Notes under the pieces: generated by a model
The model's database searches: none
Told to the model about the DNA's origin: nothing
The model's input: only the letters and a program-made list of their open reading frames with translations
Made by a program: the position numbers and the translations under genes
Virus record (IMG/VR): IMGVR_UViG_3300032303_002088
Span: 1-37,801 of that record
Reading direction: 5' to 3' (one strand)
DNA length: 37,801 nt
From: a virus
Lineage: Duplodnaviria; Caudoviricetes
In this document: piece by piece, positions 1,660 to 35,195 of the stretch
How positions within the stretch are numbered: the stretch's first letter is position 1
Layout of the letters: each line of letters begins with the position of its first letter

Positions 1660-1667
1660 TGATATTT

Positions 1668-1754
1668 CGGAACGAGTAGGATTCGAACCCACGGATGGAG
1701 TAAACCATCGGAAGTTTAGTAAACTTCTGCTTTAGACCACTCAGCCATCGTTCC
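1668..1754 (-). tRNA. tRNA-Ser, anticodon ACT, CCA not encoded
   Basis: Acceptor GGAACGA/TCGTTCC, G73 discriminator, anticodon arm GAAGT-TTACTAA-ACTTC, long variable arm GATGG/CCATC, T arm GTGGG-TTCGAAT-CCTAC. Confidence 0.92.
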
Positions 1755-1755
1755 G

Positions 1756-3504: not shown

Positions 3505-4500
3505 TTAAATAGATTCTTTATTACCAGAAAATACTACTTCACAATATGAATTCAATTCTTTTGAAATATATTCTTTCATGTTATCGAAATCATTAAATTT
3601 AATAAAATTTGGGCCTTCTTTATCATTATCTAATCGCAATTTAAATATCCCTAATTCTTCTAATATATCGCATTTATTGATAATTAATTTTGTAGTTCCA
3701 GATTTTTTAATAGCAGACAATAGTTTATTAAAATTTAACCAATTAACTAATCTCTTTCTTCCAGTAGTTGTACCATATTCTTTTCCTAGCTCTATTAATC
3801 TATTTAACTCTTCATCTTCCCATAAAGATTCTGGAAATAAAGGATCAATTCCGCTTTTTGTATCGTATATTTTAGCGATACCAATAATGTCTCTTATTAA
3901 TTTAGGACTAAAACCTAAAGAACATGCTGAATATGGCAAGGTTTCACTACTTGTTACATAAGGATAATCGCCATAATTAATATCTAACCAAAAACTTTGT
4001 GCTCCTTCGCATAAAACTTTACCATTTAATTCTCCGTCCCAAATATATTTTTTATCTAAATAATTTTTTGCTATTTTACCAATTCTAAGCATTTTATCTG
4101 AATAACAAGGAGCAATACCTTGTCCAGTTGTTCCTAGTTTTGGTTTTAAAAATTTTAGATCATATTGAATATGTTTTTCAGTAATTATATGAGCATTGGG
4201 ACTAACCTTGATTAATGATGTATCAAATCCTTCTTTTTTAAGATAATCTATCTCATCAAAAAATTTATCAATATTGATAACACAATTTGGACCAATAACG
4301 CATTTTTTACTATGAAAAATTCCACAAGGAATGACATGAGTTTTATATTGCTTATCATTTAAATAAACTGTATGTCCTGCATTTGGCCCACCATTCCAAC
4401 GACATACATAGTCATAATTATTAGTTATTGCATTTACAATTTTGCCTTTGCCTTCATCCCCCCAAGAAAGGCCAAAAACAATATCAACAAACTCTATCAT
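3505..4500 (-). CDS. purA: Adenylosuccinate synthetase, short form
   Basis: WGDEGKGK, GGPNAGHT, GTTGQGI, EGAQ, YPYVTSS, GTTTGRKR, NKCD; ATG 4500 overlaps upstream TGA. Confidence 0.93.
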   Translation of the reverse strand: MIEFVDIVFGLSWGDEGKGKIVNAITNNYDYVCRWNGGPNAGHTVYLNDKQYKTHVIPCGIFHSKKCVIGPNCVINIDKFFDEIDYLKKEGFDTSLIKVSPNAHIITEKHIQYDLKFLKPKLGTTGQGIAPCYSDKMLRIGKIAKNYLDKKYIWDGELNGKVLCEGAQSFWLDINYGDYPYVTSSETLPYSACSLGFSPKLIRDIIGIAKIYDTKSGIDPLFPESLWEDEELNRLIELGKEYGTTTGRKRLVNWLNFNKLLSAIKKSGTTKLIINKCDILEELGIFKLRLDNDKEGPNFIKFNDFDNMKEYISKELNSYCEVVFSGNKESI

Positions 4501-4715
4501 TGTTCGCAATTATATAATTTGCTAGGGTTTCTTAAATTAAAGATATTTACATTTTCTTCTTTTTTATCAGAAATAATAGTTACAGTTTCATGATCAATAA
4601 CTTTATTTACAATACCACAATATCCCTCTTCTGTTATAGAGTTTGTTATAACAAACATTTTCTTACCCAAGATTCTTTTTAGAATGTTAAATTTAATTTT
4701 ATTTACTGTTTCCAT
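4497..4715 (-). CDS. hypothetical small beta-rich protein
   Basis: Start reassigned to ATG 4715, 7 nt after TATAAT. Confidence 0.65.
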   Translation of the reverse strand: METVNKIKFNILKRILGKKMFVITNSITEEGYCGIVNKVIDHETVTIISDKKEENVNIFNLRNPSKLYNCEQ

Positions 4716-8681: not shown

Positions 8682-9275
8682 ATGCAAAATAAAATAATTG
8701 GGATTGCTGGATGTGCAAGGTCTGGCAAAGATACATTTTTTAATATACTAAAAAAGTATATACCAGAAGTAGAACAAATAGCTTTAGCTTATGAATTGAA
8801 AAAAGATTTAAATGATTTTGTTAAATCTAAAATTGGAATATCTGTATTTACTGATGAAACAAAAGATAAAACTCTTATTCGTGGACTTATGGTAGAATAT
8901 GGAAAAATCAAAAGACAACAAACTGAAGGTACATATTGGACATGTCTGGCTCAAAAGAAAATTAACGAAATTCTAAGAAGTGATAAAATTCCAGTTATTA
9001 CTGATATAAGATATGATATTTATCCTAAAGATGAATTTGATTGGTTAAAAAACGAAAATAATGGAATTTTAGTTCATATTACTAGATTGTTTGGTGATGA
9101 TGAAATCCCTCCAGCCAATGAAGAAGAGTCTATTAATAACGAAAAGTTAAGAACAAAAGCAGACTATTCAATTAAATGGAATACAGTAGAGTCAAATCAA
9201 AATCCTGTAGAAGATTCTAATTTGAATGAAGTAATAAAAGGATTTATTAAATATTATGATAAAACTAGAAAATAA
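8682..9275 (+). CDS. Deoxynucleoside monophosphate kinase
   Basis: IIGIAGCARSGKDT P-loop, VITDIRY, NGILVHITR. Confidence 0.85.
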   Translation: MQNKIIGIAGCARSGKDTFFNILKKYIPEVEQIALAYELKKDLNDFVKSKIGISVFTDETKDKTLIRGLMVEYGKIKRQQTEGTYWTCLAQKKINEILRSDKIPVITDIRYDIYPKDEFDWLKNENNGILVHITRLFGDDEIPPANEEESINNEKLRTKADYSIKWNTVESNQNPVEDSNLNEVIKGFIKYYDKTRK

Positions 9276-9858
9276 AACAGACGAATTTTTAATAAAAAGA
9301 ATTCAAAAAAAGAATTGTGATGATAGTCTTAAAATATTAATTAATCGTCATTCACCATTATGTTATAAAATATATAAAAAATATAATCCATCTTTCAATG
9401 TCAAGAATATAGATATCAATGAAATTTATCAACAAAAAGATTATATAATATATAAAACTGTTCTTTCTTTTAATTTTGAAAAGAAAGTAAAGTTTTCAAC
9501 ATGGCTAGGTAATCAAATAAGATATCAATGTCTTAACGCTATTAATAAAAAAGAAGATATTATATATATGGATGCGCCAGAGCTTCAATTTTTAATAGAT
9601 AAAAATCCTTTAGACACAAAAAATGAAAAATTAAATGAATTAAGAGATTATATAAATTCTTTACTTGAGCAATTAAAAGATATTAGAATTTGTAAAATAT
9701 TTCAAATGAGATATTTTGAAAAAGGATCTATTCAAACTTGGACAAAAATTGGTAAAAAAATGAATATGAGCACTCAAAATGCTATTAATTTACATAATAA
9801 AGGCGTACAAATATTAAAAAATAAATTGACAAGTAAGGATTTGTTTGATAAAATATAA
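9256..9858 (+). CDS. Phage sigma70-family factor (regions 2 and 4)
   Basis: SFNFEKKVKFSTWLGNQIRY region 2; IFQMRYF...TWTKIGKKMNMS HTH. Confidence 0.85.
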   Translation: MIKLENKTDEFLIKRIQKKNCDDSLKILINRHSPLCYKIYKKYNPSFNVKNIDINEIYQQKDYIIYKTVLSFNFEKKVKFSTWLGNQIRYQCLNAINKKEDIIYMDAPELQFLIDKNPLDTKNEKLNELRDYINSLLEQLKDIRICKIFQMRYFEKGSIQTWTKIGKKMNMSTQNAINLHNKGVQILKNKLTSKDLFDKI

Positions 9859-16456: not shown

Positions 16457-18289
16457 ATGTGGCATTGTCCAGAAAAATATAATAAAAAAGATTTAGTTGA
16501 TATTAATAAACAACTATTAGAAATACAGGGTCCAATGCTAGATAAAGAAGCTAAAATAAGTTTAGCTAAGTTTTTAAGAGCAAATCTTGGATTAACAACA
16601 GAATTAATAAGTGGAATTAAATTAGCTCCATATCAAGAGGTAAATTTAAAAGCCTTTTTTAATCGTAATTTTAATATGTGTGTTTGGGGTCGAGGATGCT
16701 CAAAATCTTTTATCGCAAGCGTATATTGTTTTTTACAATGTATTTTTGAACCTAACTCTAAAATTTTAATTGCAGGACCAACATTTAGAACTGCAAGAAA
16801 TATTTTTACAAATTTAGAAAAAATTGTCAATAGCAAAGAAGCTCAACTTTTACAACAAGCTTTTGGAGTAAAAAGTAAAAGAAATGATTTATTCGAATGG
16901 GAAATTAATGGAGGTAATATTGTTGCTATTCCTCTTAATGGTGAAAAAGTTCGAGGCTTTAGAGCCAATGTGCTTGTGCTTGACGAGTTTCTTCTTATAC
17001 CAGAAGATATTATAAAAAATGTTCTTATGCCATTCTTAGTCGCACCTCAAAATATGAAAGAGCGTATTCAGATAAGAGAAATGGAAGATAAACTTATACA
17101 AGAAGGCATTATGAAAGAAGAAGATAGAATGGTATTTCCAAATAAATCTAAAATGATTGCTCTTTCTTCTGCAAGTTATACATTTGAAAATCTATATAAA
17201 ACTTATAAAGAGTGGGTTGCAAATATATATTCAGAAGAAGCAGTCAAAGATGCCACTTATTTTGTAAGTCAAATGGGTTATGAAGCATTACCAGAAGAAA
17301 TGGTAGATAAGACTATTATTGAAGAAGCTCAAGCTGGAGGTTTAAGTCATAGCGGATTTTTAAGAGAATATTGTGCTCAATTTACAGATGGAAGTGATAG
17401 TTATTTTTCTGCTAAAAAAATGCATTTATGTACTATTCCAGATGGAGATTCGCCAACTTCTAAAATATATGGAGATAAAGATAAAAAATATATATTAGCA
17501 ATTGATCCTAGTTTTAGTAATAGTCCAAGTTCAGATTATTTTGCTATGTCTATAATTGAAGTTGATGAAGAAAAAAAAGATGGAATACTTGTTCATTCTT
17601 ATGCTGTAGCGGGTGGAGATTTAAAAGATCATATTATTTACTTTCATTATCTAATGACAAATTTTAATGTAGAAATGGTTATCATTGATAATGCTGGTTA
17701 TCAATTTATTGACTCTGCTAATGAAAATGAATTATTTAAAAGATCTGGAATTGAATTAAAATTTTTTCAAGTTAATTCAGATGCAGAAGGAATTGAGTAT
17801 GATCGTATGATAAAAGATGCAAAAAGACAATATAATAAAGAAACAAAAAGAATTTGCTTTAAACAAATGTTCACTACTGATTTTATTCGTAGAGGTAATG
17901 AATATTTGCAAGCTTCTATAGATCATAAAAAAATATGGTTTGCAAGTCGTATATGTGCAAATGGAGATGCTTTTGGAAGAGCAACAGGTGCAAATATAAA
18001 TATTGAATCAACTGGATTTGACAATTTAATAGACTTTGTAGAAAACCAAGATGATATGATATATGCCACTAAAAAAGAATGCAGTTTGATAGAAGTCAAA
18101 AGTACAAGCCGTGGAATCCAATCATTTGATTTACCTCAACATCTTAAAAGAAACACTAGTTCTCAAAGAGCTAGAAAAGATAGATATACAGCTCTTATGC
18201 TTGGTAATTGGGCAAGTAAAATTTATTTTGATATGATTAAAATTCAAGATAAAGTGGAAAATGAAACATTTAGCCCTATAATGTTATAA
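16457..18289 (+). CDS. terL: Terminase large subunit
   Basis: GRGCSKS Walker A variant, RGFRANVLVLDE Walker B, SSA coupling motif, nuclease AIDP, IID, KDRYTA. Confidence 0.92.
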   Translation: MWHCPEKYNKKDLVDINKQLLEIQGPMLDKEAKISLAKFLRANLGLTTELISGIKLAPYQEVNLKAFFNRNFNMCVWGRGCSKSFIASVYCFLQCIFEPNSKILIAGPTFRTARNIFTNLEKIVNSKEAQLLQQAFGVKSKRNDLFEWEINGGNIVAIPLNGEKVRGFRANVLVLDEFLLIPEDIIKNVLMPFLVAPQNMKERIQIREMEDKLIQEGIMKEEDRMVFPNKSKMIALSSASYTFENLYKTYKEWVANIYSEEAVKDATYFVSQMGYEALPEEMVDKTIIEEAQAGGLSHSGFLREYCAQFTDGSDSYFSAKKMHLCTIPDGDSPTSKIYGDKDKKYILAIDPSFSNSPSSDYFAMSIIEVDEEKKDGILVHSYAVAGGDLKDHIIYFHYLMTNFNVEMVIIDNAGYQFIDSANENELFKRSGIELKFFQVNSDAEGIEYDRMIKDAKRQYNKETKRICFKQMFTTDFIRRGNEYLQASIDHKKIWFASRICANGDAFGRATGANINIESTGFDNLIDFVENQDDMIYATKKECSLIEVKSTSRGIQSFDLPQHLKRNTSSQRARKDRYTALMLGNWASKIYFDMIKIQDKVENETFSPIML

Positions 18290-33571: not shown

Positions 33572-34093
33572 GTGATAGTAACTGATAAAGATATATCTTA
33601 TCTTTCTAAAAAACTTAATCTATCTGAAGAGAAGACCTTCTGTTTAATTGATGATCCAGAAGCAGTAGAAAAAATACTAATAAAAGTAGCACAAGAAGAT
33701 TTGCATGGAAATGAAGTAGTAGACATTAGTTTTCCACTTTATACATGTTTATGCATTTTAAAATATAGTGAAGATTTAAAATACGATTTTAACGAGAAAG
33801 AATATATAAGTGATACTATAAGTAAAAAATATCCTACAATAAGTAAGGACAAGCTTGAAGAAGAATTTATTTTAAATATAAAAAAGAATGAAGATAGTGC
33901 TCAATACTTTACTGTGTTCTTAGGATTCTTTCATAAAAAATTGGATAGACCAAGAAGGTGCTATCCAGATCAAAAGATTTATTATACTATAGCTAAAGAA
34001 GGTTACAATAATTCAAACCGAGAGAATATAGCTTATCATTTAAATAATTGGATTAAAGTCTTAAGAAGAATCAATACTGAAATTTGGTTTTAA
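33572..34093 (+). CDS. hypothetical protein
   Basis: 173 aa, GTG start, CTGTAA 8 nt upstream. Confidence 0.7.
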   Translation: MIVTDKDISYLSKKLNLSEEKTFCLIDDPEAVEKILIKVAQEDLHGNEVVDISFPLYTCLCILKYSEDLKYDFNEKEYISDTISKKYPTISKDKLEEEFILNIKKNEDSAQYFTVFLGFFHKKLDRPRRCYPDQKIYYTIAKEGYNNSNRENIAYHLNNWIKVLRRINTEIWF

Positions 34094-34143
34094 ATCTTAT
34101 CTTAATTATTATACTTTTCTTTAATATCCCATAGAAGACTTTC

Positions 34144-34430
34144 CCTCATATATAATATTGAGGTTGTATCTAGTATATAGTCCCTACTTTTCTTTTAACT
34201 CCCATTTTTCTCTTGCGAGGAAACAGACTACGGCATTTATAGAGGCGAGGTGGCTTACCTCTGTTACATTGCCGTCCCTTACAGCCACACATTAATTCCC
34301 AAGCCATCTTATGCACAAGGGAAGTTTTCATAGTCGCAAGTCTTCACAGCGTTGCTATCTCTTGGAACTATATACTAAACAGTTTTCTATAAAACTATCA
34401 AAATTGCCTATAATTAGAAGGCTATGTCAA
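34144..34430 (-). ncRNA. Candidate structured non-coding RNA, family not recognised
   Basis: GC-richer intergenic segment behind a consensus promoter; 14-bp closing helix 34171-34184/34364-34377 with nested helices; G-U pairs favour the minus strand. Confidence 0.6.
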
Positions 34431-34436
34431 TAGGTT

Positions 34437-34465
34437 ATAATACTACTCTTTTTGGAGTTTGTCAA
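34437..34465 (-). promoter_or_regulatory. sigma70 promoter for the candidate RNA
   Basis: TTGACA-N17-TATTAT. Confidence 0.75.
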
Positions 34466-34486
34466 ATTTTTTTATATAATATTTTC

Positions 34487-34702
34487 ATGGAGCTTATTAA
34501 AAATCAGAACTCTTGGAAAAAATTTATTAAAAATAAACTTAAAAGCTATAATTTAGAAGATAGTAGAATTGATAATAATTTTAAGCCTCAAGAGTTTCCT
34601 TGTTTAGCTCAATCATATATAAATTCAGATGTTAATGGTTTAAGATTAAAATTTGTATTTGCTTATAAAAAAGATTGCAAAAAACTATTAAGTAAAGTAT
34701 AA
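34487..34702 (+). CDS. hypothetical protein
   Basis: Start reassigned to ATG 34487, 6 nt after TATAAT. Confidence 0.65.
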   Translation: MELIKNQNSWKKFIKNKLKSYNLEDSRIDNNFKPQEFPCLAQSYINSDVNGLRLKFVFAYKKDCKKLLSKV

Positions 34703-34711
34703 TCTGTGTAA
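34675..34711 (+). promoter_or_regulatory. tmRNA promoter region (sigma70 plus GTGTAA)
   Basis: TTGCAA-N17-TATAAT (34675-34703) and GTGTAA 34706-34711. Confidence 0.65.
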
Positions 34712-34735
34712 GATCGTTTGTAGTTCTTTCTCATT

Positions 34736-35152
34736 GGGCCCGTACTGGTTTCGATTTTAAGAATTGAAATTAGAATGCAAGTAGAGTTGAAGTGGACTCT
34801 ATAAACAACTTCAAACACTTAACTGCCAAATCAGCTAAGTTAAAAGGTAGTTTCTCATTGAGAGTTTCTCACAATAAGAAGCACCTAATCGCAGCCTAAA
34901 AATCTGCGACCTGTTATCTATGACACATCTACTAGAATAATGGGTATTTAGATGTATATCTTTAAATCCTTTTTATTTAATTTTTAAAGATATTATTTAG
35001 GGTGAATATAGCTAAGGTTGTATTCATTTTTAAATAAATAGCTATAGCTCAATTGCTTATTCGACACTACAGCGAAATAACGGAATAAGATAAACTTGTA
35101 GTATTTTAATTTGACTTTTTAAAAGACAAGAGTTCAATTCTCTTCGGGTCCA
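34736..35152 (+). ncRNA. ssrA: tmRNA
   Basis: Acceptor GGGCCCG/CGGGTCC-A with G3-U70, GGTTTCGA D-loop, GAC-AAGAG-TTCAATT-CTCTT T arm, tag ORF 34825-34899 ending LIAA-stop. Confidence 0.95.
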
Positions 35153-35195
35153 AGTATTTAACATATCAGCATTAATTTTGTGTAATTATAATATC

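What the first reader, a model, noticed from the sequence alone, without database searches (positions are those of the whole stretch)
34144..34465. Unidentified promoter-driven structured RNA divergent from the tmRNA unit
Seen: a TTGACA-N17-TATTAT promoter fires leftward into ~330 nt with no ORF of 60 aa or more. The segment is visibly GC-richer than the coding DNA. A 14-bp helix (34171-34184/34364-34377) encloses nested helices 34212-34218/34334-34340, 34230-34235/34270-34275, 34241-34245/34258-34262 and 34296-34300/34319-34323. The loop at 34250-34256 is complementary to two separate sites (34283-34288 and 34301-34306), suggesting a pseudoknot, kissing loop or switch. Flanking hairpins lie at 34378-34399 and 34144-34163. 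Mismatches become G-U only on the minus strand, agreeing with the promoter. Inference: a phage ncRNA I cannot assign to tRNA, RNase P, SRP or 6S. A GACUA/UAGUC pair echoes the group I intron P7 helix, but no other intron core is visible. A 53-codon ORF (34331-34170) with atypical codons lies inside and is the alternative explanation.
Basis: partly seen in the sequence, partly recalled or inferred. Interest (0 to 1): 0.8.

Follow-up and report, generated by a model that had tools for sequence, protein, structure and literature searches.

The report
Twin-box double-pseudoknot lake-phage RNA
A group of uncultured lake phages carries its own gene for a roughly 300-base, doubly knotted RNA that matches no catalogued RNA family, and its two short repeated boxes almost always change together, so they likely grip each other like-with-like to close or chain the RNA, which would be a new way for a natural RNA to assemble.

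Summary
The feature is real and larger than reported: a minus-strand RNA gene of about 315 nt (34427 to 34113) behind a conserved TTGACA-N17-TANNAT promoter. I collected 112 distinct full-length homologues in four sequence types (278-319 nt). No Rfam family matches, even at E up to 10. The 53-codon ORF, the group I P7 echo and one 7-bp helix are not conserved. The link to tmRNA is positional only. The oddest trait is two unpaired 12-nt boxes, 55-75 nt apart, that are identical in 110 of 111 parsed RNAs across 7 different box sequences. No complementary partner was found in the RNA or in the phage DNA held, and no reverse transcriptase. Best reading: a trans-acting, ornate-type phage RNA whose boxes pair like-with-like (0.35); a shared protein or host-nucleic-acid partner remains open. 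Function is untested and transcription is only hinted at.

The parts
34437..34465 (-). sigma-70-type promoter (-35 TTGACA 34465-34460, -10 TATTAT 34442-34437)
   Evidence: conserved 5-10 nt before the RNA start in 107 of 110 homologues
34113..34427 (-). the RNA gene, about 315 nt; ends inferred from where conservation starts and stops, not mapped
   Evidence: lengths 278-319 nt in 109 of 112 members measured
34406..34422 (-). 5' hairpin H1; its loop may pair with the 4 nt just before box 2 in types W, B, C (not D)
34171..34377 (-). P3 (34364-77 with 34171-84) closing the central multi-way junction
   Evidence: the 3 well-aligned pairs all show two-sided changes; more within type W
34330..34358 (-). 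P4: two short stems around an invariant CAA/A asymmetric loop, apical loop forming PK2
   Evidence: P4a 100% paired in 37 rows, 3 of 4 pairs with two-sided change
   Evidence: 5 of 7 pairs change on both sides, 97.7% of cells paired; 7 of 7 pairs in 103 and 6 of 7 in 9 of 112
34296..34324 (-). P5 with apical stem 34303-34316; shortened in type C, a plain hairpin in type D
34250..34288 (-). pseudoknot PK1: 34283-34288 with loop 34250-34255
   Evidence: 2 of 6 pairs change on both sides; 6 of 6 pairs in 74 and 5 of 6 in 38 of 112
34226..34278 (-). P6 (34270-78/34226-35) and P6b (34258-61/34242-45) carrying the PK1 loop
34206..34223 (-). P7, variable hairpin
   Evidence: many two-sided changes within type B
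34186..34204 (-). box 1, unpaired, in the junction before the 3' strand of P3
34144..34163 (-).
34113..34131 (-). box 2, the 3' tail; 12-nt core equal to that of box 1
   Evidence: identical cores in 110 of 111 parsed members, 7 different cores
34736..35153 (+). tmRNA, divergent neighbour in types W and B only; not part of the element
33572..34093 (+). 173-aa helical protein of unknown function, convergent neighbour and marker of the phage group; no shown link to the RNA

Best explanation
This is a stand-alone phage gene for a roughly 315-base RNA with two pseudoknots, likely transcribed early by the host's main polymerase, whose two unpaired boxes likely lie side by side and pair like-with-like (A with A, G with G, U with U, C with C) to close the fold or to chain copies of the RNA into an RNA-only assembly that would act in trans as a scaffold or decoy. 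Shown by comparison: the gene, its strand, its promoter motif, the helices, both pseudoknots, one copy per contig, and the base-for-base identity of the boxes. Inferred: transcription and timing, the direct box-to-box contact, oligomer formation and the scaffold or decoy role. That it is a real structured non-coding RNA I put at about 0.95; the confidence figure is for the mechanism.
For: Structure: core helices 98.2% paired, 13 of 38 pairs with two-sided changes, slid controls 25-48% (types W and B); across four types 93.4% paired, 15 of 25 pairs with two-sided changes, slid controls 28-48%. Own gene: conserved promoter; changing neighbours; tmRNA 10 and 16 kb away in one D and one C contig. 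Near-universal in the group: 44 of 45 contigs with the marker ORF hold it, one as a piece at a contig end; one strong match in each of 5 long contigs. Boxes: members were picked without using the boxes; 12-nt cores are identical in 110 of 111 parsed, over 7 core sequences, with joint changes at four single positions and one wholesale swap. No column in the RNA changes as a Watson-Crick partner would. No excess of further box copies in five type D contigs, and none of note in the complete G010. No reverse transcriptase in 5 contigs. RNA types are scattered on the marker-protein tree (type C: at least 3 changes forced by well-supported branches), which fits a self-contained, exchangeable module. 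Precedent for like-with-like contacts: A-A pairs between chains in OLE (PMC12286853, passages) and in OLE and ARRPOF dimers (PMC12990946, passages). One lake metatranscriptome holds a 445-nt contig spanning nearly all of a type B RNA (contigs show neither strand nor level, and DNA may be in the library).
Against: No experiment. Identity of the boxes is equally what two sites for one partner nucleic acid would give, and the host genome is unknown, so a host target was not searched. A mixed-sequence like-with-like helix of 12 nt in a natural RNA has no precedent that I found (listing), and purine and pyrimidine self-pairs differ in geometry (recalled). One member (L444) is discordant at one position, and box 1 has one extra purine. 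Joint changes were counted by eye; no RNA tree was built. The OLE and ARRPOF contacts are between the same loop of two chains, not between two different sites. Five of the six contigs searched for box copies are 30-54% complete.
Confidence: 0.35

Rival explanations
1. The RNA is a two-site sponge or scaffold: each box binds one copy of the same host or phage protein, and the knotted core holds them at a set distance.
For: Both boxes are unpaired, purine-rich and follow a hairpin; host-type promoter; 57 of 378 alignment columns are invariant over four types.
Against: A protein that tolerates G, A or U at a position should let the two boxes drift apart, yet 110 of 111 match. No neighbouring gene travels with the RNA; RNA type does not follow the marker protein.
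Confidence: 0.25
2. The boxes are two guides that base-pair with the same host RNA or DNA sequence (antisense, anti-defence decoy or bridging RNA), so a change in the target forces both to change.
For: Explains base-for-base identity directly; types are exchanged among close relatives, as host-adapted alleles would be.
Against: No target in the phage DNA held; no nuclease, recombinase or reverse transcriptase stays beside it; the box swaps from an A-run to a UUGGG form in phages with near-identical tmRNA tags.
Confidence: 0.17
3. It is a new ribozyme or ligand-binding RNA: the invariant P4 loop, PK1 and PK2 form an active site, for example for tRNA or tmRNA processing, and the boxes are secondary.
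For: Invariant unpaired bases cluster at P4, PK1, P6 and before PK2; double pseudoknots are common in ribozymes (recalled); the phages carry tmRNA and tRNAs.
Against: No ribozyme or riboswitch model matches; the group I G-site pair is not kept; it has its own promoter and no fixed downstream gene; does not explain the boxes.
Confidence: 0.13
4. The boxes are DNA sites, or are kept alike by copying between repeats, and the RNA acts in cis (replication primer or terminator of the convergent operon).
For: Direct repeats can be protein sites on DNA (general knowledge); in types W and B the gene faces the end of a convergent operon.
Against: Box spacing varies; the boxes fall exactly in unpaired parts of the fold; the bases just 5' of the cores stay different between the boxes; the locus moves.
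Confidence: 0.07
5. The 53-codon ORF 34331-34170 is the gene.
For: The frame is open in the window.
Against: The ATG exists in 14 of 15 type W and 0 of 92 other members; the frame is 53 codons in 3 of 15 and 7-49 in the others; no PHROGs match.
Confidence: 0.01

Closest known systems
GOLLD (RF02032) and ROOL (RF03087), large ornate RNAs of phages and prophages
   Same: Phage-encoded, multi-pseudoknot, function unknown, near translation-related RNA genes; both form RNA-only cages (PMC12286853, passages and Discussion).
   Different: About 280-320 nt against 550-800+ nt; no model match at E up to 10; own promoter rather than a tRNA array; twin boxes not described for them in the passages read.
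raiA motif RNA
   Same: Similar size; two pseudoknots; a two-part stem bent by an asymmetric loop whose apical loop forms a 6-bp pseudoknot (PMC12968392, passages).
   Different: Bacterial chromosomal; closed by a conserved P1 of the 5' and 3' ends, which this RNA lacks; both raiA knots use one linker, here they use two distant strands; no Rfam match.
OLE and ARRPOF dimers
   Same: A-A pairs between chains are the nearest precedent for like-with-like contacts; ARRPOF is 255 nt with several pseudoknots.
   Different: Those contacts are short, A-only and between the same loop of two chains; here two different sites share a mixed 12-nt sequence. No Rfam match.
Group I intron core
   Same: GACUA and UAGUC words in the window and an AUAA run before the second.
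   Different: The A-U pair of the supposed P7 is A-C in 32 of 37 rows and the supposed G-site base changes with P4, not with its P7 partner; not inside a gene.

Membership tests
Any Rfam 15 family (incl. GOLLD, ROOL, OLE, raiA, ARRPOF, RNase P, SRP, 6S, ribozymes, riboswitches) | covariance-model score at the family's gathering threshold | tested here: not met
   window: only tmRNA and tRNA; 34050-34750 at E up to 10: two chance hits outside the RNA; one B, one C and two D loci at E up to 1: only tmRNA
GOLLD / ROOL | length of 550 to over 800 nt with the family's stems | tested here: not met
   278-319 nt; lengths of the known RNAs
GOLLD / ROOL | RNA-only homo-oligomer or cage | not testable with these tools
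   needs mass photometry or cryo-EM
raiA motif | conserved closing P1 between the 5' and 3' ends | tested here: not met
   5' end forms local hairpins and the 3' end is a knot strand plus a tail in all types; the end pairing in the window's energy fold is not kept in C or D by inspection
raiA motif | two pseudoknots, one from the apical loop of a bent two-part stem | tested here: met
   a likeness of plan only
Group I intron | P7 with invariant G-C guanosine site and the adjacent A-U pair (consensus recalled) | tested here: not met
   A-U in 5 of 37; the G changes to A together with its P4 partner in 7 rows while the supposed P7 partner stays C
Group I intron | interrupts a host gene, with splice sites | tested here: not met
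   intergenic with own promoter and changing neighbours
Bacterial RNase P RNA | P4 helix with bulged U and conserved regions CR I-V in order (recalled) | tested here: not met
   the look-alike GGAAAG segment pairs without a bulge as PK2 and varies with its partner; no model match
Self-cleaving ribozymes | site-specific cleavage in vitro | not testable with these tools
   no model match; activity needs an assay
Retron / DRT template RNA | reverse transcriptase gene beside or with the RNA | tested here: not met
   PF00078 in 0 of 5 contigs, one rated complete; neighbours
cis-regulatory leader (riboswitch or tmRNA-linked element) | fixed downstream gene on the same strand | tested here: not met
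   downstream neighbours differ and mostly face the RNA; tmRNA far away in C and D
Small protein gene | conserved start and reading frame | tested here: not met
Candidate structured RNAs of Fremin et al. 2023 (PMC10690425) | overlap with one of 8,495 IMG/VR candidates of 29-151 nt | tested here: inconclusive
   no motif or contig-name hit in the tables searched; the alignment archives could not be read; none is long enough to cover the whole RNA, but a part may be listed

The most novel reading that the evidence does not exclude
The two boxes form a mixed-sequence, parallel, like-with-like RNA helix (A-A, G-G, U-U, C-C) that links box 2 of one molecule to box 1 of the next, so that this 300-nt phage RNA builds rings or cages without protein, and the box sequence is a self-recognition code that differs between phage lineages.
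Probability: 0.2. Interest if true: 0.92.

Novelty: new variant of a known kind. Interest (0 to 1): 0.72.

Why it matters
Large phage RNAs of unknown function (GOLLD, ROOL) turned out to build RNA-only cages, and whether that is common is an open question. This family is half their size, has 112 natural variants with strong covariation, is carried by nearly every contig of its phage group, and offers built-in mutants: seven natural box sequences. A single-box versus double-box mutant series on an in vitro transcript tests the mechanism directly. If the boxes pair like-with-like, it would be a new RNA structural rule and a signal (joint identical change) that covariation tools built on complementary pairs do not look for.

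Tried and rejected
INPHARED phages: no match for the window RNA, a type D RNA, the marker ORF or the terminase. First viral pattern gave mostly unrelated matches. GTDB pattern scan: 17 matches, none scored with model R1 at E up to 1 and none looks like the family; R1 is weak for type D. Model R2 on 151 genomes of the phylum of an Opitutaceae MAG: no match, with no positive control in that set. R2 on 40 contigs with a related terminase (4-42% complete): best E 0.015, so inconclusive. The best-looking of these, L559, is the start of a long open frame. The second weak R2 match in G004 is a chance row that had entered the model's alignment. Expression: the run search used 1.4 kb that includes the tmRNA; 4 of its 24 runs laid on the window cover tmRNA and flanks but not the RNA; of 4 laid on a type B locus, one covers the RNA; a hole in contigs proves nothing. 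Marker protein: confident model (pTM 0.83) but no clear fold match, best Z 5.6. Box pairing with the H1 loop explains only the base before the boxes and fails in type D. Column 281 follows the C/U box position in types W and B but not in C. Anticodon-loop, Shine-Dalgarno, CsrA-site and mini-ORF readings of the boxes (motifs recalled) do not survive across the four types. One result against my P7 rejection: three of five supposed P7 pairs do hold or change together; those columns are already fully paired in P4 and P6, and type D is misaligned there.

Full report
Setting. The window is a 37.8-kb virus record of a large tailed phage with terminase, ribonucleotide reductase, a sigma factor, a tRNA and a tmRNA. 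A relative rated complete is 172 kb and encodes a DnaE-type polymerase, DnaB, primase and RecA. The host is unknown; a prepilin-like gene and an autotransporter repeat in that relative hint weakly at Verrucomicrobiota (below cut-off; the link is my inference).

Observation. The promoter alone is not beyond chance, and both strands fold equally well against shuffles. Rfam gives nothing, at gathering level or at E up to 10.

Homologues. The convergent 173-aa ORF led to 45 IMG/VR loci; 36 hold the element within 3 kb, one as a piece at a contig end. A covariance model found diverged versions elsewhere on 8 of the other 9 contigs; the ninth is 14% complete. Pattern scans of viral contigs and metagenomes added more (80 of 105 metagenome matches came with full flanks). 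With a definition that uses only P4 and PK1 motifs, 112 distinct full-length sequences fall into four types: W (window-like, 15), B (62), C (12), D (23). Mean column identity over the types is 61%. Truncated copies were left out before these counts.

Extent and strand. A -35/-10 pair ends 5-10 nt before the start in 107 of 110 parsed members, 0.27% in shuffles. G-U outnumbers A-C 71 to 2 in the core helices read on the minus strand.

Fold. 5' hairpins H1 and H2; P3 closing a junction of P4, P5, P6 and P7; box 1; then P8, a knot strand and box 2. In 36 W and B rows the core is 98.2% paired with 13 of 38 pairs changing on both sides. In 37 rows of all types, 25 well-aligned pairs are 93.4% paired with 15 changing on both sides; slid controls give 28-48%. 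PK2, which it missed, has 5 of 7 pairs changing on both sides, also within types C and D, and its 3' strand was not part of the family definition. Related sequences inflate such counts, so the within-type changes weigh most. PK1's invariant bases were part of the definition, so its tally is partly circular.

What fails. The helix 34212-18/34334-40 and the second loop partner have no comparative support. The ATG of the 53-codon ORF exists only in type W and the frame length is not kept (107 of the 112 sequences). The group I echo fails at the guanosine site, although three of its five pairs hold (see Tried and rejected). tmRNA is adjacent in W and B only; in one C and one D contig it is 16 and 10 kb away, and neighbours vary.

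The twin boxes. Box 1 and box 2 share a 12-nt core (box 1 has one extra purine). The cores are identical in 110 of 111 parsed members; one differs at one base; one unparsed member matches by eye. Seven core sequences occur: a C/U toggle in W and B, a wholesale change from an A-run to a UUGGG form in D, and four single changes within D, each made in both boxes. One of these (L573) came from a scan that ignored the boxes. By inspection this is about six to eight separate joint changes; no RNA tree was built. No other column changes as a complementary partner would. The phage DNA held has no excess of further copies on either strand, and there is no reverse transcriptase that could jump between repeats. 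RNA types C and D are scattered over a tree of the marker protein (36 of 45 loci; near-duplicates and two without a whole RNA left out), so the gene, or the marker, is exchanged among close relatives while each contig keeps one copy.

Mechanism. Base-for-base identity needs something that compares the boxes: each other, or one shared base-pairing partner. With no partner in the RNA or the phage DNA, I favour direct like-with-like pairing, within a molecule or between molecules (0.35). A protein-binding sponge (0.25), a guide for an unknown host sequence (0.17) and a new ribozyme (0.13) remain. Early, host-polymerase transcription is inferred from the promoter, and from the absence before the RNA of the GTGTAA motif seen before several protein genes. 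Transcription is only hinted at, by one contig in one lake metatranscriptome.

Comparison and novelty. It works, at best guess, like the ornate RNAs (GOLLD, ROOL, OLE, raiA, ARRPOF) but belongs to none by model, length or topology. Papers seen: PMC12286853 (passages and Discussion), PMC12968392 (passages), PMC12990946 (passages), PMC10690425 (passages, section 2.1, four of six supplementary files searched, two archives and three larger files unreadable). Eight literature searches (listings only) showed no description of this RNA; the library lacks most subscription papers, and a part of the RNA may sit in the unread archives.

Verdict. A real, new family of structured phage RNA of unknown function with an unexplained and directly testable internal code. 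Novelty: new variant of a known kind. Interest 0.72.

Noticed in passing
window 34736-35153 (+): tmRNA with an unusually long 24-residue tag; relatives have two tag types, one going with RNA type W and one with B, C and D.
   Followed up: partly
window 1667-1755 (-); also L468:8171-8260: tRNA-Ser with anticodon ACU; A at the wobble position is rare in bacterial tRNAs (recalled). Same call in a type C relative.
   Followed up: no
window 3505-4509 (-): PHROGs labels it PurZ-like, but NCBIfam scores PurA far higher (260 against 95 bits) and an IMP dehydrogenase gene lies close by: a purine-synthesis pair, no sign of Z-DNA.
   Followed up: yes
window 12556, 12572, 18294, 29749, 32110, 33206, 35180, 35501: A GTGTAA motif stands 10-25 nt before several gene starts; likely a phage-specific promoter, perhaps read by the sigma factor at 9256-9858. 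Types C and D carry the same word inside the PK1 strand.
   Followed up: no
window 34490-34702 (+): 70-aa ORF between the RNA promoter and tmRNA, present in most W and B loci but missing in L003; no family match.
   Followed up: partly
L457:206-3342 (relative G010): Phage-borne prepilin-like gene next to an autotransporter-repeat protein; many glycosyltransferases elsewhere in the genome.
   Followed up: no
L559:1330-1605 (-): A weak model hit in a terminase relative that shares an 11-base word with types C and D; it is the leader and start of a long open frame, not an RNA gene.
   Followed up: yes
window 16457-18289 (+): The terminase has 1,925 relatives at E below 1e-30, some from ocean collections, and none in INPHARED: a large uncultured phage group.
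   Followed up: partly
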